Origin: a virus
Virus genome (UHGV): UHGV-1465484
Direction: 5' to 3' (one strand)
Length of the DNA: 24,080 bases
The notes beneath the pieces were generated by a model. It worked only from the letters and a program-made list of their open reading frames with translations. It did no database searches and was not told where the DNA came from. The translations under genes were made by a program, and so were the position numbers. Positions 980-24,080 of the stretch are shown in pieces (within the stretch, counting starts at the first letter, position 1; each line of letters begins with the position of its first letter).

Positions 980-4660
<3,681 letters not shown>

Positions 4661-7863: not shown

Positions 7864-8217
7864 GTGGCTGATTTCGATAACCTGTTCGATGCTGCCATTG
7901 CCTGCGCCGATGAAACGATACGCGGGTACATGGGAACGTCAGCCACCATGACATCCGGTGAGCAGTCCGGTGCTGTGATACGTGGTGTTTTTGATGACCC
8001 TGAAAATATCAGCTATGCCGGACAGGGCGTGCGCGTTGAAGGCTCCAGCCCGTCCCTGTTTGTCCGGACTGATGAGGTGCGGCAGCTGCGGCGCGGCGAC
8101 ACGCTGACCATCGGTGAGGAAAACTTCTGGATAGACCGGATTTCGCCGGATGATGGCGGAAGCTGTCATCTCTGGCTTGGGCGGGGCGTACCGCCTGCCG
8201 TTAACCGTCGCCGCTGA
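7864..8217 (+). CDS. FII: Head-tail connector / head completion protein gpFII
   Basis: 117-aa ORF with GTG start after GGGAGG; lambda FII length. Confidence 0.9.
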   Translation: MADFDNLFDAAIACADETIRGYMGTSATMTSGEQSGAVIRGVFDDPENISYAGQGVRVEGSSPSLFVRTDEVRQLRRGDTLTIGEENFWIDRISPDDGGSCHLWLGRGVPPAVNRRR

Positions 8218-8803: not shown

Positions 8804-9199
8804 ATGAAACATACTGAACTCCGTGCAGCCGTACTGGATGCACTGGAGAAGCATGACACCGGGGCGACGCTTTTTGATGGTCGCCCCGCTGTTTTTGATG
8901 AGGAAGATTTTCCGGCAATTGCCGTTTATCTCACCGGCGCTGAATACACGGGCGAAGAGCTGGACAGCGATACCTGGCAGGCGGAGCTGCATATTGAAGT
9001 TTTCCTGCCTGCTCAGGTGCCGGATTCAGAGCTGGATGCGTGGATGGAGTCCCGGATTTATCCGGTGATGAGCGATATCCCGGCACTGTCAGATTTGATC
9101 ACCAGTATGGTGGCCAGTGGCTATGACTACCGGCGCGACGATGATGCGGGCCTGTGGAGTTCAGCCGATCTGACTTATGTCATTACCTATGAAATGTGA
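8804..9199 (+). CDS. U: Tail terminator protein gpU
   Basis: 131-aa ORF; its ATG (8804) overlaps the TGA of the extended Z frame. Confidence 0.95.
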
Positions 9200-19931: not shown

Positions 19932-22322
19932 GTGGATAGGGCAGCAGTAAAAATCTCAGGTGTGCGGAAAGATGGTGCGGGAGAACCAATACAGAACTGC
20001 ACTATTCAACTGAAGGCAAAGCGTAACAGCACCACGGTACTGGTGAACACGGTGGCCTCTGAAAATCCTGATGAAGCCGGGCGTTACAGCATGGATGTTG
20101 AGTATGGCCAGTACAGCGTCACCCTGCTGGTTGAAGGTTTTCCGCCTTCACATGCCGGGACCATTACCGTCTATGAAGGCTCCAGACCAGGTACGCTGAA
20201 TGATTTTCTCGGTGCCATGACGGAAGATGATGTCATGCCGGAGGCATTGCGTCGTTTTGAACTGATGGTGGAAGAAGTGGCACGCAACGCCGAAGCCGCC
20301 TCTCAGAGCGCAGCGGCGGCAAAGAAATCCGAAACTGCAGCGGCATCATCAAAGAACGCGGCGAAAACCTCAGAAACGAATGCAGCTAATAGTGCACAGG
20401 CGGCAGCGACCTCAAAGACTGCATCGGCAAACTCCGCGACAGCAGCCAAAAAATCAGAAACCAACGCGAAAAATAGCGAGACAGCCGCAAAGACGAGCGA
20501 AACCAACGCAAAGTCCAGCCAGACGGCAGCGAAAACCAGCGAAACGAATGCCAAAGCCAGTGAAACTGCGGCAAAAAACAGCCAGGTTGCAGCAGCCCAA
20601 AGCGAGAGCGCGGCAGCCGGTTCTGCGACTTCAGCAGCTGGATCAGCAACTGCTGCGGCTAACAGCCAGAAAGCTGCGAAGACGAGTGAAACTAACGCAA
20701 AGTCCAGCCAGACGGCAGCGAAGACCAGCGAAACGAATGCCAAAACCAGCGAAACTGCGGCGAAAAACAGTCAGGATGCAGCAGCCCAAAGCGAGAGTGC
20801 TGCAGCTGGTTCTGCAAGCGCGGCGGCTGCTTCTGCCATTGCATCAGCCAACAGTCAAAAAGCTGCAAAAACCAGTGAAACCAACGCAAAGGCGAGCGAG
20901 ACTGCGGCTGCTAACTCGGCGAAAGCATCAGCTGCAAGCCAGACGGCTGCAAAAGCAAGTGAAGACGCAGCCAGGGAGTACGCAAGCCAGGCAGCAGAGC
21001 CGTATAAATATGTCTTACAGCCGCTTCCTGATGTGTGGATACCGTTTAACGATTCACTGGATATGATTACGGGCTTTTCGCCATCATATAAAAAGATTGT
21101 TATTGGTGATGATGAAATAACAATGCCTGGCGACAAGATTGTAAAGTTTAAACGCGCATCAAAAGCAACTTACATTAATAAATCTGGTGTGCTGACAGAG
21201 GCTGCAATCGATGAACCTCGCTTTGAAAAGTATGGATTGCTGATTGAAGGGCAGCGTACAAACCTGTTAATAAACAGCACAAATCCATCAAAATGGAACA
21301 AGTCATCAAATATGATTTTAAATACATCAGGTGTAGATGATTTTGGTTTCCAGTACGCAAAATTCACATTAAAACCAGAAATGGTGGGGCAAACCTCAGC
21401 CATTTCTATTGTCACAGTATCTGGAAGCAAAGGATATGATGTTACCGGCGATGAAAAGTATGTAACTATCTCATGCAGGGTACAAAGTGGGACTCCAAAT
21501 TTAAGATGTCGATTACGATTTGAAGAATATGATGGATCTACCTACAAATTCCTGGGTGATGCTTACTTAAATATGACAGATTTATCGATTGATAAAACTG
21601 GCGGCGCTGCAAGTCGTATTACTGCAAGGGCTGTTAAAAATGAAGCAAGCAAATGGATTTTCTTTGAGGCAACAATTAAGGCACTTGATACAGAAAATAT
21701 GATCGGTGCGATGGTGCAATATGCACCACCAAAAGGGGGAAGCACTGGTGCAGATGATTATATTTATGTTGCAACTCCTCAGGTCGAAGGCGGTTCGTGC
21801 GCTTCTTCGTTTATTATTACTGAGGCAACGCCAGTCACAAGAGCCAGTGATATGGTGAATATACCAACAAATAACAATATCGGTACACCACCTTTAACAT
21901 TTCTAGCTGAAGTTCATACAAACTGGAACGAAACGCCAAATGCAGCACCACGAATTTTTGATACCAGTGGTGGGAGCACAACTCCGGGTCAATATATAAG
22001 TGTTGCTATTAGTTCAACATTATTTCCTGGTGTTACGATGCACAATAAAAACGGTAGTACAGTAGCCGCCGTATCGCCAGTATTATTTGAACAAAAATCT
22101 GTTCTTGGATTTGTTTTAAATGAATCTGGTAATGTGCATTTCGTTAGCAATGCCCAGCATGGGACTCCTAAAACCACGGATCATGTCGGTGTTAAATCTG
22201 GTTATTTCTTCAGGATTGGGGGACAGACTAATAGCGGTCTACGTCATCTTTTCGGTCACATTCGTAATTTTCGTATATGGCATAAAGAATTAACCGATGC
22301 ACAAATGGGAGAGGTAATATAA
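19932..22322 (+). CDS. stf: Side tail fibre protein: lambda-Stf-like N-terminus and Ala/Ser/Thr heptad shaft fused to a non-lambda C-terminal tip with a LamG/ConA-like lectin signature
   Basis: 796-aa ORF; first start in frame is GTG at 19932 (exact start uncertain); residues ~5-120 resemble lambda Stf from memory; residues ~120-335 are KTSETNA-type heptad repeats; the remainder is AT-rich and ends in ...HIRNFRIWHKELTDAQMGEVI. Confidence 0.85.
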   Translation: MDRAAVKISGVRKDGAGEPIQNCTIQLKAKRNSTTVLVNTVASENPDEAGRYSMDVEYGQYSVTLLVEGFPPSHAGTITVYEGSRPGTLNDFLGAMTEDDVMPEALRRFELMVEEVARNAEAASQSAAAAKKSETAAASSKNAAKTSETNAANSAQAAATSKTASANSATAAKKSETNAKNSETAAKTSETNAKSSQTAAKTSETNAKASETAAKNSQVAAAQSESAAAGSATSAAGSATAAANSQKAAKTSETNAKSSQTAAKTSETNAKTSETAAKNSQDAAAQSESAAAGSASAAAASAIASANSQKAAKTSETNAKASETAAANSAKASAASQTAAKASEDAAREYASQAAEPYKYVLQPLPDVWIPFNDSLDMITGFSPSYKKIVIGDDEITMPGDKIVKFKRASKATYINKSGVLTEAAIDEPRFEKYGLLIEGQRTNLLINSTNPSKWNKSSNMILNTSGVDDFGFQYAKFTLKPEMVGQTSAISIVTVSGSKGYDVTGDEKYVTISCRVQSGTPNLRCRLRFEEYDGSTYKFLGDAYLNMTDLSIDKTGGAASRITARAVKNEASKWIFFEATIKALDTENMIGAMVQYAPPKGGSTGADDYIYVATPQVEGGSCASSFIITEATPVTRASDMVNIPTNNNIGTPPLTFLAEVHTNWNETPNAAPRIFDTSGGSTTPGQYISVAISSTLFPGVTMHNKNGSTVAAVSPVLFEQKSVLGFVLNESGNVHFVSNAQHGTPKTTDHVGVKSGYFFRIGGQTNSGLRHLFGHIRNFRIWHKELTDAQMGEVI
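20290..20980 (+). repeat. Internal coding repeat region of stf: 21-nt (7-aa) heptad units, including two ~140-bp direct copies (20487-20626 and 20676-20815) spaced 189 bp apart
   Basis: The two copies were aligned by eye and are about 90% identical; at protein level AAKTSETNAKSSQTAAKTSETNAK(A/T)SETAAKNSQ(V/D)AAAQSESAAAGSA occurs twice. Confidence 0.8.
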
Positions 22323-22612: not shown

Positions 22613-23317
22613 ATGGCTACATCGACAGTAATTCCTGGAGATATCACCACGCTAAAGGGAGATGTCAGTAAAACTAAGGAAGATATTTCCTCAATTAACG
22701 GAAAAGTATCAACGCTTCAGATTGATATGACCAGTGCAAAGCAGGATATCAGCACCAGATACACAAAAACTGAAGTTGATAATAAGCTGAAAAACAAAGT
22801 GGAAGCGAACGATCTGGAAAGCGGTCGTTATGGCGGTGATTTTTACCCGCTGACTGGCCGCGAAGCGTTTTATTTATGGGGGTTGGGCACGACTACTGCT
22901 GCGGCAAACCTTTATCTTAATCCTGACCCTGCAATTTCGTCTGTACTGCGGTCCACATCGTCTATCCGCTATAAACATTCAGTAGAGACGATAGATTCAG
23001 AGCACGCCGATGTCATTTTCAGGATGCGCCCTGTGTGGTACAGGTCGCAATGCGAAAATGACAGGCGTGACTGGGGGTTCTACGGATTGATTGCCGAGGA
23101 AGTAGGAGAAATTGCCCCTCAGTTTGTACACTGGCGACCAGCTAACGAAGATGATGCTCCTGAAGCTATTTCCAGCAATGGCCTTGTTGCCGAAGGTGTA
23201 ATGTACGAACGTCTGGTTGTTCCACTGATTCACCATATCCAGAAGCTGACTGAAAGAGTTGATGAACTTGAGTCAGAATTAAAGTTGTTATTAACTTCCC
23301 GAAGCGATATCGGATAA
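22613..23317 (+). CDS. Short fibre-like protein: N-terminal 11-residue-periodicity repeats plus C-terminal peptidase-S74-type intramolecular chaperone domain
   Basis: ATG at 22613 preceded by GAGGGAG; 234 aa; S116-S-I-R-Y-K121 matches the S-x-x-R-x-K Ser/Lys dyad spacing of S74 chaperone domains; GFYGLIAEEVGEIAPQFV ... LVVPLIHHIQKLTERVDELESELKLL is the typical S74 C-terminal pattern. Confidence 0.75.
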   Translation: MATSTVIPGDITTLKGDVSKTKEDISSINGKVSTLQIDMTSAKQDISTRYTKTEVDNKLKNKVEANDLESGRYGGDFYPLTGREAFYLWGLGTTTAAANLYLNPDPAISSVLRSTSSIRYKHSVETIDSEHADVIFRMRPVWYRSQCENDRRDWGFYGLIAEEVGEIAPQFVHWRPANEDDAPEAISSNGLVAEGVMYERLVVPLIHHIQKLTERVDELESELKLLLTSRSDIG

Positions 23318-23327
23318 AGGAGGAATA

Positions 23328-23615
23328 ATGGATATAACACCTTTCCTTCATGCACTTTGTGCTGTGGCTGCGCAGGTACTGGTTGGTCTTTTTACCGGAA
23401 ACTGGGCTTACGGGGCGATAGCCGGTTGTACGTTCTTCATTGCGCGTGAACACACCCAGGCAGAATATCGCTGGATCGAAATGTTCGGGCATGGCAAGCG
23501 AATGAATATGCCGTGGTGGGGCGGTTTTGATCCGCGTGTTTGGGATGTGGCAAGCCTGATAGATTTTGCTGTGCCGGTGGTGGCGTGTCTGCTGGTCTGG
23601 CTGTTGATCCGTTAA
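23328..23615 (+). CDS. Small hydrophobic protein (95 aa), probable membrane protein or lipoprotein; candidate moron
   Basis: Strong SD (AAAGGAGG) 4-5 nt before ATG at 23328; hydrophobic N-terminal segment (residues ~5-33) ending in a lipobox-like I-A-G-C, and a hydrophobic C-terminal segment (ASLIDFAVPVVACLLVWLLI). Confidence 0.7.
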   Translation: MDITPFLHALCAVAAQVLVGLFTGNWAYGAIAGCTFFIAREHTQAEYRWIEMFGHGKRMNMPWWGGFDPRVWDVASLIDFAVPVVACLLVWLLIR

Positions 23616-23616
23616 A

Positions 23617-23660
23617 CAAAAAAAGCCGCAGCAACTTGTCATGGCAGGATACTGCGGCTG
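23617..23660 (-). terminator. Hairpin with the U-run on the minus strand (possible terminator for leftward transcription, or bidirectional)
   Basis: AGCCGCAG ... CTGCGGCT stem at 23624-23631 and 23653-23660 with a ~21-nt loop; the A-run at 23614-23623 on the + strand is a T-run after the hairpin on the minus strand; no T-run follows on the + strand. The long loop makes this weak. Confidence 0.35.
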
Positions 23661-24080
23661 GCTGGTGAACCTCCGATAGTGCGAGTATTGAATGATTTTC
23701 AGCCATTACTGATTTTACGCATTTTTTGCATGAGAGGATTTGCACCTGCTCTCACAGACCATCTATGACTGTACGCCACTATCTCTAGGGCTGCTATGTG
23801 CTGTGAGTTCAACCAATGTACGAACAGCCAGAAGCGGACAAATGATGACAAACTATATGCTCATCAACGTAGAGTAAGCCACTCAGTTGATGATGGGAGT
23901 GGGTTGCCTGCTGCCATCACTATTGTCGATTCTTAAGTGTACGCACTCTAATTTACAGTTGCTTCATAGCGTAAAATATGATTTAAGATCAAAGACGTTT
24001 ACATCTCGTACCTCACAAGCAGCTTTTACTTGCTGAGGGCGGTAGCGTTTCTATTATTATCTCAAATCAATATGGATAAT

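What the first reader, a model, noticed from the sequence alone, without database searches (positions are those of the whole stretch)
23616..24080. About 460 bp non-coding tail with an antisense-oriented terminator, repeated GTGTACG-type motifs and a candidate outward promoter
After the last gene there is no ORF of 60 aa or more on either strand, and minus-strand frames entering from the window end all hit stops within a few codons. The hairpin at 23624-23660 has its U-run on the minus strand, suggesting a leftward transcript ends here. The motif TGTACG(C/A) recurs near 23771, 23817 and 23939. TTGCTG - 16 nt - TATTAT at about 24031-24058 could be a sigma70-type promoter firing rightward out of the window. 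This may be a regulatory junction, an sRNA locus or the edge of another cargo unit.
Basis: seen in the sequence. Interest (0 to 1): 0.4.

Follow-up and report, generated by a model that had tools for sequence, protein, structure and literature searches.

The report
Prophage defence-cassette junction and leader
The non-coding tail is the seam between a lambda-like prophage's tail genes and an anti-phage gene cassette (3HP) that starts 4 bases past the window; it holds a backward-facing terminator, a boundary site of a type that flanks mobile gene cassettes in many bacteria, and the cassette's own leader with a conserved RfaH-type (ops) signal.

Summary
Extending the window (E. coli TCM3e1, prophage at icd) shows a three-gene 3HP anti-phage operon starting at 24084.

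The tail has four parts:
1. 23614-23659: an intrinsic terminator for leftward transcripts. Confirmed.
2. 23660-23787: a conserved spacer.
3. 23788-23839: the left boundary site of the cargo slot, paired with an inverted partner 3.4 kb to the right. It belongs to a family of 24-bp sites (GTCCGCTnTGTGCCAGAAGCGGAC and a TGAGCGA-core variant). These sites bound gene cassettes in prophages, plasmids and islands, and sit beside a 200-aa tyrosine recombinase found in at least 547 species. Between-strain differences begin and end inside these sites.
4. 23938-24083: the cassette's own leader. Its most conserved block is a JUMPstart-like stem plus GGCGGTAGCGT, matching ops positions 1-11, and it is kept in five genera at a fixed distance from the start codon.

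The TGTACG repeats are no more frequent than chance.

RfaH dependence and recombinase activity are inferred, not shown. I found no paper describing either.

The parts
23614..23659 (-). Intrinsic terminator for leftward transcripts. Stems are 23624-23631 and 23652-23659; the U tract is encoded by the A run at 23614-23623, which overlaps the stop codon (23613-23615) of the 95-aa gene.
   Evidence: RNA fold of the minus strand is -20.6 kcal/mol, followed by UUUUUUUGUUU. The stem is kept in related prophages and phages while the inner stem and loop differ. In L003, L025, L027 and phage PhiR11_1 the adjacent cargo gene is on the minus strand and is transcribed towards this hairpin.
23660..23787 (.). 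Conserved non-coding spacer that precedes the slot's boundary site. PGAP labels 23649-23723 as a 'capsid protein' pseudogene fragment.
   Evidence: It is 80-93% identical in other lambdoid prophages. Megablast finds it in 174 genomes. It recurs on both sides of the cargo in L025 (4409-4566 and 9001-9151) and L027. It shows no similarity to the recombinase module. Its function is unknown.
23788..23839 (+). Left boundary site of the cargo slot (A type): outer arm GGGCTGCTA 23788-23796, core TGTGC 23797-23801 plus CA 23829-23830, inner arm GAAGCGGAC 23831-23839. The core is interrupted by a 27-nt block.
   Evidence: It is the left arm of a 53-nt, 83% inverted repeat (23791-23843) whose partner is L001:15956-16008, 3411 nt to the right. 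Homology with other prophages ends at this site. The site-family consensus is GTCCGCTnTGTGCCAGAAGCGGAC.
23802..23828 (+). 27-nt block TGTGAGTTCAACCAATGTACGAACAGC inside the site core. It is probably the remnant end of an earlier cassette.
   Evidence: It is absent from the same site in L002-L004 and PhiR11_1. An inverted copy sits in the right-hand partner site. Block-bearing arms occur only in the 4 genomes that carry this cassette. Its first part, TGTGAGTTCAAC..C(A/G)ATG, is the terminal sequence of another cassette type at the L003 right end and the L025 left end.
23840..23937 (+). Cassette-proximal sequence, partly shared with the same 3HP cassette in a Klebsiella P2-like prophage and an Enterobacter lambdoid prophage. 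The block at 23884-23905 is conserved.
   Evidence: Alignment of upstream regions. Function is unknown.
23938..24080 (+). 5' leader of the 3HP operon. It continues to the Hp1 ATG at 24084, just outside the window.
   Evidence: It aligns with the leaders of Hp1 relatives (76-93% aa identity) in Klebsiella, Kosakonia, Enterobacter and Yersinia, which sit in unrelated contexts.
23952..23989 (+). Conserved promoter-like block with two overlapping sigma-70 candidates: TTTACA 23952-23957 with TATGAT 23977-23982, and TTGCTT 23959-23964 with TAAGAT 23984-23989. Both have 19-nt spacers.
   Evidence: The block ACAGTTGCTTC..TATG.TTTAA.AT is conserved in 5 leaders, and candidates fall at the same aligned positions. 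The assignment is tentative: the spacers are non-optimal, there are no TSS data, and the scan tool calls nothing.
24020..24049 (+). JUMPstart-like element: stem CAGC 24020-24023 / GCTG 24032-24035, then the ops-like GGCGGTAGCGTT at 24038-24049.
   Evidence: JUMPstart is the Rfam hit here (14.8 bits) and again in the Enterobacter relative (18.6 bits, E 0.12); both are below the gathering score of 35. The sequence differs from ops12 (GGCGGTAGCGTG) at one position. GCTGAGGGCGGTAGC is the longest invariant run (15 columns) in leaders that are only 55-85% identical, and it lies 45-48 nt before the ATG in all of them.
24030..24057 (+). Rejected.
   Evidence: The hexamers score 3/6 and 5/6. No equivalent -10 exists in L009, L013, L014 or L016, while the 'spacer' is invariant. 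It overlaps ops, which must be transcribed to function.
23770..23776 (+). TGTACGC, one of three TGTACG(C/A) copies (the others are at 23817-23823 and 23938-23944). These are chance recurrences.
   Evidence: Searches show no enrichment. The copy is not conserved in L002-L004.

Best explanation
The tail is the left junction of a variable cargo slot at the end of the tail-fibre module of a lambdoid prophage integrated at icd. The slot corresponds in position to the b region of phage lambda. In this prophage it holds one cassette, the 3HP anti-phage operon (Hp1 from 24084, then Hp2 and Hp3, then its own terminator).

Reading left to right, I propose four parts.
1. A hairpin followed by a U run on the minus strand. 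It stops leftward transcripts that arise in the slot before they run antisense into the late and tail genes. It is idle for this rightward cassette. The structure is shown; the function is inferred.
2. A conserved spacer of unknown role.
3. A boundary site with an outer arm, a TGTGCCA core and an inner arm (GAAGCGGAC), plus an inverted partner at the far end of the cassette. Sites of this family are where cassettes are gained, lost and exchanged, most likely by a 200-aa tyrosine recombinase acting in trans with crossover in the 7-nt core. The two core types (TGTGCCA on the left, TGAGCGA on the right) would prevent a cassette's own ends from recombining with each other. Here both cores carry a 27-nt remnant of an earlier cassette's ends, so the 3HP unit is nested and its sites may be inactive. 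That breakpoints fall at these sites is shown by comparison between strains. Catalysis by the recombinase is inferred.
4. The cassette's own leader: a weak promoter near 23952-23989, then a JUMPstart-type stem and an ops-like element at 24038-24049 on the non-template strand. I propose that ops recruits RfaH or a paralog to the elongating polymerase. That would protect transcription of the ~30% GC operon from Rho and H-NS and could help translation of Hp1, whose Shine-Dalgarno sequence is weak. The sequence and its conservation are shown; RfaH dependence is inferred.
For: Context.
- A 100% identical locus in E. coli TCM3e1 shows three genes starting 4 nt after the window, followed by an icd 3' fragment.
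- The three genes hit PADLOC Hp1, Hp2 and Hp3 at E 1e-60, 1e-27 and 4e-13. A Vibrio phage homolog is annotated Rst_3HP.
- The cassette is 27-35% GC against 44-51% for the neighbouring phage genes and occurs in only 4 of 5426 complete E. coli genomes.
- The same slot holds a retron Eco8, Avs2, an ATP-dependent nuclease or unknown genes in other prophages and in the viable phage PhiR11_1.

Terminator. The adjacent cargo is transcribed leftward in L003, L025, L027 and PhiR11_1.

Boundary site.
- A 53-nt inverted repeat flanks the cassette.
- Homology with other prophages stops at the site on both sides.
- The perfect 24-bp site GTCCGCTCTGTGCCAGGAGCGGAC occurs once in L018 but twice in L020, as direct repeats around a 4.8-kb insert.
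- One 1.2-kb cassette is 99% identical in two arrays. The identity starts inside the left site and ends inside the right site.
- The recombinase gene is bounded by a B core and an A core in 7 of 7 E. coli loci, and again in 11 loci from 10 other genera.
- Those 11 loci hold 77 sites, against 1-10 in shuffled controls.
- The link between recombinase and site is kept in Pseudomonas, Alteromonadales, Burkholderiales and others.
- The recombinase has the R..HxxR..H..Y catalytic residues.

Leader.
- ops positions 1-11 are kept in all 5 distinct relatives, 45-48 nt before the ATG, and form the longest invariant run in the leader.
- JUMPstart is the Rfam hit in two independent leaders.
- GGCGGTAG is not enriched in 1.26 Mb of other array loci: 46 copies against 38 expected, and none in a JUMPstart context.
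- According to PMC5995543, the bases needed for RfaH binding (C3 to G8) match those present here, and a G12 substitution abolishes the pause but not recruitment.
Against: Leader.
- Position 12 of ops is T or A in this family, never G. All validated E. coli RfaH targets have T11-G12.
- Both JUMPstart scores are well below the gathering score.
- No promoter passes the consensus scan, the candidates have 19-nt spacers, and there are no TSS data.
- More distant 3HP operons have no ops.

Boundary site.
- The window's site core is split by 27 nt and may no longer be a substrate.
- No recombinase gene lies in the window or in the 24.8-kb locus. I did not test whether the host genome carries one.
- Other copies of this 3HP cassette lack a recognisable right-hand site.
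- The arms show little compensatory change, so I cannot say whether the site works as a duplex or as a folded strand.
- All evidence for recombination is comparative.

Terminator. The minus-strand fold has a z-score of only -1.9.
Confidence: 0.6

Rival explanations
1. This is an ordinary leader. The conserved TGCTGAGGGCGGTAGC block is part of a sigma-70 promoter or an operator for a repressor, and the resemblance to ops is coincidental. RfaH plays no role.
For: TTGCTG-16-TATTAT exists in this copy. G12 of ops is missing and the Rfam score is sub-threshold. The element lies only 34 nt from the start codon.
Against: The -10 hexamer is not conserved in four relatives, while the supposed spacer is invariant, which is the reverse of what a promoter shows. 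The block is identical to ops at 11 of 11 positions, preceded by a conserved CAGC/GCTG stem as in JUMPstart, in 5 of 5 leaders. The 8-mer shows no background enrichment elsewhere.
Confidence: 0.17
2. The inverted repeats are not recombination sites. They are structural RNA or DNA hairpins (terminators, insulators, REP-like mRNA stabilisers) that travel with cargo, and cassette turnover happens by homologous or illegitimate recombination between these short repeats. The nearby recombinase has another job.
For: B/A pairs fold into very stable hairpins (-39.4 kcal/mol, z -6.8). The arms pair in 75-78% of cells. The window copy has a disrupted core yet persists. No recombinase lies in cis.
Against: The recombinase gene is bounded by the two cores in every locus examined, across many genera. 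Homology breakpoints fall within the 7-nt cores, with the outer arm following the context and the inner arm following the cargo. The core and inner arm are the most conserved positions, as expected for protein recognition. No Rfam family matches.
Confidence: 0.15
3. The tail encodes a small RNA or a small protein, for example the 'capsid protein' fragment annotated by PGAP.
For: The 23652-23719 stretch is conserved and repeated. A 39-aa ORF is annotated at the equivalent place in L025. Plus-strand frame 0 is open for 50 codons after the stop of the 95-aa gene.
Against: There is no start codon or ribosome-binding context. There is no credible Rfam match. The scan finds no promoter or plus-strand terminator. 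The PGAP feature is a 25-codon fragment flagged as incomplete at both ends.
Confidence: 0.05
4. The TGTACG(C/A) repeats are binding sites for a regulator of the junction.
For: Three same-strand copies lie within 175 nt.
Against: There is no enrichment over shuffles. The first copy is not conserved. The second lies in the 27-nt remnant, and its inverted partner reads TGGACGC.
Confidence: 0.03

Closest known systems
ops / JUMPstart leaders of RfaH-dependent operons (waa, rfb, kps, hly, tra)
   Same: A 5' leader of a long, AT-rich, horizontally acquired operon. GGCGGTAGCGT lies on the non-template strand and is preceded by a short stem. The first gene has a weak Shine-Dalgarno sequence. The element is conserved while the rest of the leader drifts.
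   Different: Position 12 is T or A rather than G. The Rfam score is below the gathering threshold. The cargo is an anti-phage system, not a surface polysaccharide, toxin or pilus operon. The operon is short (3.3 kb). RfaH dependence is untested.
Integron gene cassettes (IntI, attI/attC)
   Same: Arrays of independent cassettes are bounded by imperfectly palindromic sites and accompanied by a tyrosine recombinase. Strains differ by whole cassettes. Defence genes are among the cargo.
   Different: The recombinase is 200 aa, contains only the catalytic domain, and does not hit the integron-integrase models. The sites lack the GTTRRRY boxes. Each cassette has two different sites in inverted orientation. 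Cargo can face either way and brings its own promoter and terminator. The recombinase sits inside the array, between a B and an A site.
pdif (Xer) modules of Acinetobacter plasmids, and engineered recombinase-mediated cassette exchange (from my own knowledge)
   Same: Cargo is flanked by inverted, short, dyad-symmetric tyrosine-recombinase sites with a 6-8 nt centre. Two non-identical cores would allow swapping without self-excision.
   Different: The site sequence is unrelated to dif. A dedicated small recombinase is present instead of the host XerC/XerD. Adjacent cassettes have separate sites about 48 nt apart. None of this has been tested biochemically.
Defence hotspots of P2/P4 and 'moron' slots of lambdoid phages (lambda b region)
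   Same: A fixed position in the phage genome between conserved flanks holds different defence systems in different isolates (PMC9122126, PMC13586616).
   Different: Here the slot edges are defined short sites shared with non-phage cassette arrays. The 2026 survey of P2/P4 hotspots states that the transfer mechanism is unknown.
3HP (Rst_3HP) anti-phage system
   Same: Three co-oriented genes match the PADLOC Hp1, Hp2 and Hp3 profiles. Hp1 carries the PF26115 PDDEXK_GAPS4 nuclease domain.
   Different: It sits in a lambdoid prophage slot. The relatives I fetched lie in a P2-like portal/replication hotspot (L006, L007), a Vibrio phage (L005), plasmids and genomic islands. This clade alone has the ops leader.

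Membership tests
RfaH-dependent operon leader (ops / JUMPstart) | ops bases 1-10 (GGCGGTAGCG), including C3-G8, which are required for RfaH binding, on the non-template strand | tested here: met
   GGCGGTAGCG at 24038-24047 on the coding strand. It is invariant in 4 of 5 distinct relatives; Kosakonia has A at position 10. The requirement comes from PMC5995543.
RfaH-dependent operon leader (ops / JUMPstart) | Pause-inducing T11-G12 dinucleotide, shared by all validated E. coli targets | tested here: not met
   T11 is present, but position 12 is T (E. coli, Klebsiella, Yersinia) or A (Enterobacter, Kosakonia). PMC5995543 reports that G12C removes the U11 pause but not RfaH recruitment.
RfaH-dependent operon leader (ops / JUMPstart) | Match to the Rfam JUMPstart covariance model (RF01707) at its gathering score | tested here: not met
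   14.8 bits (E 3.7) in the window and 18.6 bits (E 0.12) in L014, against a gathering score of 35. It is the only biologically sensible hit in both.
RfaH-dependent operon leader (ops / JUMPstart) | The element lies in the transcribed leader, downstream of the promoter | tested here: inconclusive
   A conserved promoter-like block lies 50-85 nt upstream, but there are no TSS data and no candidate passes the consensus scan.
RfaH-dependent operon leader (ops / JUMPstart) | Expression depends on RfaH | not testable with these tools
   Needs delta-rfaH or ops-mutant expression data.
Intrinsic (Rho-independent) terminator | G+C-rich stem immediately followed by a U run on the transcribed strand | tested here: met
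   Minus strand: a 10-pair outer stem plus an inner stem, -20.6 kcal/mol, then UUUUUUUGUUU. The simple scan did not call it because its loop limit is 8 nt.
   The -10 is absent in L009, L013, L014 and L016, and the spacer is invariant.
3HP anti-phage system | Three adjacent co-oriented genes matching the Hp1, Hp2 and Hp3 profiles | tested here: met
   PADLOC E-values of 9.5e-61, 1.2e-27 and 3.9e-13 with near full-length coverage.
Integron | IntI-type integrase (about 320 aa, integron-integrase models) | tested here: not met
   The recombinase is 200 aa with PF00589 only. Its best NCBIfam hits are XerA and XerC at 50-58 bits, far below their cut-offs, and there is no integron-integrase hit. It has no PDB relative by sequence.
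Integron | attC sites with R''/R' boxes (RYYYAAC / GTTRRRY) at the 3' end of promoterless, co-oriented cassettes | tested here: not met
   The site consensus is GTCCGCTnTG(T/A)GC(C/G)A..AGCGGAC. There are two sites per cassette in inverted orientation, cargo faces either way, and 3HP has its own leader and terminator. The attC box sequences are from my own knowledge.
Site-specific-recombination gene cassette (generic) | Gain or loss of a unit between strains leaves exactly one or two copies of a short site, and breakpoints lie inside the site | tested here: met
   A 24-bp site is single in L018 and duplicated around a 4811-nt insert in L020. The ends of a 99%-identical cassette fall inside the A and B sites in L019 and L024.
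Site-specific-recombination gene cassette (generic) | The window's own site is an intact member of the family | tested here: inconclusive
   The outer arm, both core halves and the inner arm are present, and the partner site is inverted. However, the core is split by 27 nt in both sites, and only in this cassette.
Transposon or MITE with terminal inverted repeats | A transposase gene and target-site duplications | tested here: not met
   No transposase lies in or beside the cassettes. The repeat flanking the L020 insert is the site itself, not a duplicated target.

The most novel reading that the evidence does not exclude
The boundary site at 23788-23839 is a member of a very widespread and, as far as I could find, undescribed cassette platform. 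A 200-aa catalytic-domain-only tyrosine recombinase and two heterospecific 24-bp sites (cores TGTGCCA and TGAGCGA) would insert, delete, invert and swap self-contained gene cassettes, many of them anti-phage systems. The exchange would run between prophage slots, plasmids and genomic islands across Proteobacteria, as a natural form of recombinase-mediated cassette exchange. In addition, one clade of the 3HP defence system would be wired into the RfaH regulon through an ops leader.
Probability: 0.35. Interest if true: 0.9.

Novelty: new variant of a known kind. Interest (0 to 1): 0.7.

Why it matters
How defence systems move between unrelated mobile elements is an open question. A 2026 survey of P2/P4 hotspots found few transposons and no flanking homology, and left the mechanism unexplained.

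The short paired sites found here mark the exact edges of the slot in lambdoid prophages. They also mark the edges of cassettes in plasmids and islands, and they travel with a small, highly conserved tyrosine recombinase. This gives a concrete hypothesis that can be tested with standard excision and exchange assays. If it holds, it would also allow systematic delimitation of cargo cassettes in genomes.

Separately, an ops leader on an anti-phage operon would extend the RfaH regulon beyond the surface structures it is known for (LPS, capsule, F pilus), which are established phage receptors, to intracellular immunity. It would also explain how a ~30% GC prophage cassette could escape Rho and H-NS silencing.

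Tried and rejected
- Rfam at permissive thresholds on the tail and at gathering thresholds on six loci gave nothing for the spacer or the sites. The only hits were sub-threshold JUMPstart, chance snoRNA hits, and known SIB, sok and IS102 RNAs elsewhere.
- The consensus promoter and terminator scan returned nothing in 23200-24080.
- TGTACG as a motif was rejected on statistics and conservation.
- ops as a general feature of 3HP was rejected. Vibrio-phage, P2-like and plasmid 3HP operons lack it.
- ops as a general feature of cassettes in these arrays was rejected.
- The first genome-contig scan, with Hp1, found nothing.
- The idea that the spacer is a decayed recombinase gene was rejected.
- The idea that the 27-nt block marks a common 'long' class of site was rejected, because it occurs only in the 4 genomes with this cassette. 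It was re-read as a remnant of another cassette's end.
- My early figure of about 1950 genomes sharing the left flank was wrong for the spacer. That count mostly reflects the 95-aa gene; the spacer alone is found in 174 genomes.
- I looked for compensatory changes in the site arms to decide between folded-strand and duplex recognition. The result was uninformative because the inner arm hardly varies.
- Literature searches by motif sequence, protein accession and several keyword sets found no description of the sites or the recombinase. A search for '3HP' returned only tuberculosis-regimen papers.
Full report
**What follows the window.** The last 781 nt of the window are 100% identical to E. 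coli TCM3e1 and two other complete genomes, and 98.7% identical over 98% of their length in a fourth. In TCM3e1 the window's genes are the tail module of a lambdoid prophage: tape measure, L, J, Lom, side tail fibre, an S74-chaperone tail-fibre protein and a 95-aa hypothetical. A gene starts at window position 24084, followed by two more co-oriented genes (326, 368 and 225 aa). After these come about 800 nt of non-coding DNA and a 3' fragment of icd, next to iraM. The prophage therefore sits at icd, and the finding lies close to its right end.

The three genes match the PADLOC profiles Hp1, Hp2 and Hp3 at E 1e-60, 1e-27 and 4e-13. A Vibrio phage homolog is annotated Rst_3HP__Hp1-3, and Hp1 relatives carry PF26115 PDDEXK_GAPS4. 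The operon is 27-35% GC, against 44-51% for the adjacent phage genes. This cassette is present in only 4 of 5426 complete E. coli genomes.

**Checking the observation.**
- ORFs. No ORF of 60 aa or more lies within the tail, and the minus-strand frames entering at 24080 stop within 3-7 codons. Two mechanical minus-strand ORFs do start at 23642 and 23745 and run leftwards, antisense to the real genes.
- Hairpin. It is real. As minus-strand RNA it folds at -20.6 kcal/mol and is followed by UUUUUUUGUUU. The plus strand folds equally well but has no U run.
- TGTACG(C/A). It recurs as stated but no more than chance allows, and it is not conserved.
- TTGCTG-16-TATTAT. It is at 24030-24057. It is a weak match and is not supported by comparison with relatives (see the section on the leader).

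**The slot.** Other lambdoid prophages share the 95-aa gene, the hairpin and the spacer up to about 23800-23839, and then diverge completely. The cargo found at that point is:
- a hypothetical gene plus retron Eco8 (L002)
- a 672-aa protein on the minus strand (L003)
- Avs2 (L004, also at icd)
- a 1180-aa protein plus a transporter/aminotransferase pair (L025)
- a DUF4145 protein (L026)
- an ATP-dependent nuclease (L027)
- three minus-strand genes in the viable phage PhiR11_1

On the right, homology with about 2340 genomes resumes at L001:15998, roughly 380 nt before the icd fragment. This is therefore a variable cargo slot between conserved flanks, in the position of lambda's b region. In several of these phages the adjacent cargo gene is transcribed leftward, towards the hairpin. 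That gives the minus-strand terminator an obvious job: stopping cargo transcripts before they run antisense into the tail genes.

**The boundary site.** A 53-nt, 83% inverted repeat brackets the 3HP cassette: window 23791-23843 and L001:15956-16008. Alignment with other prophages shows that the conserved part is GGGCTGCTA-TGTGCCA-GAAGCGGA on the left, with an inverted TGAGCGA-core counterpart on the right. The same short elements occur at every cargo boundary I examined:
- L002 reads A+ cargo B- then A+ retron B-.
- PhiR11_1 reads A+ cargo B- then A+.
- An Enterobacter plasmid carrying a distant 3HP has the same pattern.
- So does a Yersinia island.

B-/A+ pairs are about 48 nt apart and fold into a very stable hairpin (-39.4 kcal/mol, z -6.8). 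The consensus sequences are A = GTCCGCT(c/t)TGTGCCAGAAGCGGAC and B = GTCCGCT(a/g)TGAGCGAGGAGCGGAC. This has the layout of a tyrosine-recombinase core site: two arms of 8-9 bp in dyad symmetry around a 7-nt centre. The core and the inner arm are the best conserved parts.

**Evidence that these sites are recombination breakpoints.**
1. Two E. coli strains carry the same island. In L018 the perfect 24-bp site GTCCGCTCTGTGCCAGGAGCGGAC occurs once (3777-3800). In L020 it occurs twice (3235-3258 and 8046-8069), as direct repeats around a 4811-nt insert that carries a reverse-transcriptase gene and a B site. The flanks on either side are 97-99.5% identical.
2. A 1.2-kb cassette is 99% identical in L019 and L024 but has different neighbours. 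The identity begins inside the A site: the outer arm differs and the sequences are identical from TGTGCC onward. It ends inside the B site, after CCTCGCTC.
3. A 603-nt gene for a 200-aa tyrosine recombinase lies in these arrays. The protein has PF00589 only, carries the R..HxxR..H..Y residues, fits no NCBIfam equivalog and has no PDB relative by sequence. Homology between its copies runs for 709 nt, from a B core 62 nt upstream of the start to an A core 27 nt after the stop. This holds in 7 of 7 E. coli loci, four of which I selected by the recombinase alone.
4. The recombinase is in 863 of 5426 E. coli genomes. It is also in at least 547 species representatives at 61-97% identity, from Enterobacterales to Pseudomonas, Alteromonadales, Burkholderiales and some non-proteobacterial MAGs. 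A hairpin plus a (T/C)G(T/G)GCCA..AGCGGAC-like site follows its stop codon across these taxa.
5. In 11 loci from 10 other enterobacterial genera there are 77 sites, against 1-10 in shuffled controls. They show the same flanking of the recombinase and the same recurrent B-/A+ junctions.

Together this shows that cassettes are gained, lost and exchanged at these sites. That the small recombinase catalyses the exchange is a strong inference, not a demonstration.

**Consequences of two core types.** Having two different cores in inverted orientation at the two ends of a cassette would block recombination between a cassette's own ends. It would still allow A x A and B x B exchange with any other locus of the family. 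This is the logic of engineered cassette exchange and resembles Acinetobacter pdif modules; both comparisons are from my own knowledge.

**The window's own site is unusual.** In both the left and the right site the core is split at the same position by an inverted copy of a 27-nt block, TGTGAGTTCAAC CAATGTACGAACAGC at 23802-23828. Arms bearing this block occur only in the four genomes with this cassette. The start of the block is the terminal sequence of a different cassette type: it is joined to the B core at the right end of the L003 cargo and to the A-like core at the left end of the L025 cargo. The simplest reading is a nested event. The 3HP unit, with its own GAAGCGGAC and GTTCGCTTG inner arms, replaced the interior of an earlier cassette and left 27 nt of each of its ends. 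Whether the interrupted sites can still recombine is unknown. No recombinase gene lies in the window or in the 24.8-kb locus.

**The leader.** Hp1 relatives at 76-93% identity occur in four very different settings:
- a Klebsiella P2-like prophage
- a Kosakonia island next to OLD-like and UvrD genes
- the region beside the replication genes (O, P) of an Enterobacter lambdoid prophage
- a Yersinia island beside an integrase and mutS

Their upstream regions align with the window only from about 23938 onward, and more weakly around the A-like site and 23884-23905. Pairwise identity of the 150-nt leaders is 55-85%. The longest invariant run, 15 columns, is GCTGAGGGCGGTAGC, and the next longest runs are 6 and 5 columns. 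It lies 45-48 nt before the ATG in every case.

GGCGGTAGCGT equals positions 1-11 of the ops element, GGCGGTAGCGTG. The preceding CAGC(8-10 nt)GCTG stem matches the JUMPstart architecture. JUMPstart is the only biologically sensible Rfam hit in two independent leaders, although both scores are below the gathering score (14.8 and 18.6 bits against 35). According to PMC5995543, bases C3-G8 are needed for RfaH recruitment and all are invariant here. T11-G12 is shared by all validated E. coli targets, and a G12 substitution removes the pause but not recruitment. In this family position 12 is never G, so this membership feature is not met. As background, 1.26 Mb of other array loci contain GGCGGTAG at the chance rate and never in this context. 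More distant 3HP operons lack it.

Its -10 is not conserved, while its 'spacer' is the invariant block, so I reject it. A conserved block at 23952-23989 offers two overlapping sigma-70 candidates with 19-nt spacers. This is the most likely promoter, but the assignment is tentative.

My proposal is that RNA polymerase starting there pauses at or exposes ops and loads RfaH or a paralog. That would make transcription of the AT-rich operon resistant to Rho and H-NS and would assist translation of Hp1, whose Shine-Dalgarno sequence is only GGA. I put this at about 0.55-0.6.

**Comparison with what is known.** The 3HP system and prophage defence hotspots are known (PMC9122126, PMC13586616). I found no paper linking RfaH or ops to a prophage defence operon. 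I also found none describing these sites or this recombinase, using motif, accession and keyword searches. The 2026 P2/P4 survey explicitly leaves the mechanism of defence shuttling open. The library is incomplete, so the absence of a hit does not prove novelty. The system fails the defining tests for an integron: it has no IntI-type integrase, no attC boxes, two sites per cassette, and cargo in either orientation with its own promoter. It also fails the tests for a transposon. It behaves like a site-specific cassette platform.

**Verdict.** The finding as written is a mix. The terminator and the 'edge of a cargo unit' are correct. The TGTACG motif is a chance recurrence, and the promoter is a misreading of an ops element. 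The region is nonetheless more interesting than a plain intergenic tail. It joins two things that appear not to have been described: an ops-type leader on an anti-phage operon, and a boundary site of a widespread recombinase-associated cassette system. Both mechanisms are inferred from sequence comparison and need the experiments listed in the next steps.

Noticed in passing
L018:5342-5944, L019:10046-10648, L020:9611-10213, L021-L024:9001-9603, L028-L107: A 200-aa, catalytic-domain-only tyrosine recombinase is present in 863 of 5426 E. coli genomes (including CFT073, 042 and 83972) and in at least 547 species representatives at 61-97% identity. It is always followed by a hairpin and an A-type site. 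It fits no named family and has no solved relative by sequence.
   Followed up: partly
L002:9109-9118, L020:8028-8045, L024:7745-7760, L016 near 5260: The short spacer between B and A sites at cassette junctions is itself conserved (CCTTCAGCTCAGT...) in E. coli and Yersinia. I have no explanation for this.
   Followed up: no
L036:5076-9718: In Edaphovirga the polarity of the sites flips downstream of the recombinase, giving B+ ... A- units. This suggests inversion of blocks of cassettes between inverted like sites.
   Followed up: no
window 23328-23615: A 95-aa hydrophobic protein gene directly after the tail-fibre genes accounts for most of the ~1950 E. coli genomes matched. It has no Pfam or PADLOC hit. 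Its function is unknown.
   Followed up: no
window 23649-23723; L025:4369-4488: PGAP annotates a 'capsid protein' pseudogene fragment, or a 39-aa 'capsid protein', on the conserved non-coding spacer. This is probably a name propagated from a spurious small ORF.
   Followed up: partly
L025:4409-4566 and 9001-9151; L027:5907-6392 and 9001-9068: The hairpin-spacer-A-site unit recurs as a direct repeat on both sides of the cargo in some prophages. The spacer may therefore be part of a repeated platform rather than plain phage backbone.
   Followed up: partly
window 23884-23905: The block CAGTTGATGATGGGAGTGGGTT is conserved upstream of the same 3HP cassette in Klebsiella (L009) and Enterobacter (L014) while the surrounding sequence diverges. 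Its function is unknown.
   Followed up: no
window 19932-22322; L001:8639-10720: RefSeq marks the side-tail-fibre gene of this prophage as a pseudogene lacking its C-terminus, whereas the window has an uninterrupted 796-aa ORF at that position.
   Followed up: no
L013:10295-12981: In Kosakonia the related 3HP cassette lies next to an OLD-like ATPase/TOPRIM gene and a UvrD-like helicase, a Gabija-like pair. This suggests a defence island.
   Followed up: no
L001:15634-15670; L009 about 8850-8890: The 3HP cassette carries its own intrinsic terminator, AAAAAAAGAGTCG..CGGCTCTTTTTTT (-14.8 kcal/mol, z -3.4). It is shared with the Klebsiella copy.
   Followed up: partly
L002:13527-14004: Two SIB RNA / ibs toxin loci lie immediately beyond the right end of that prophage (Rfam 143-150 bits).
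   Followed up: no
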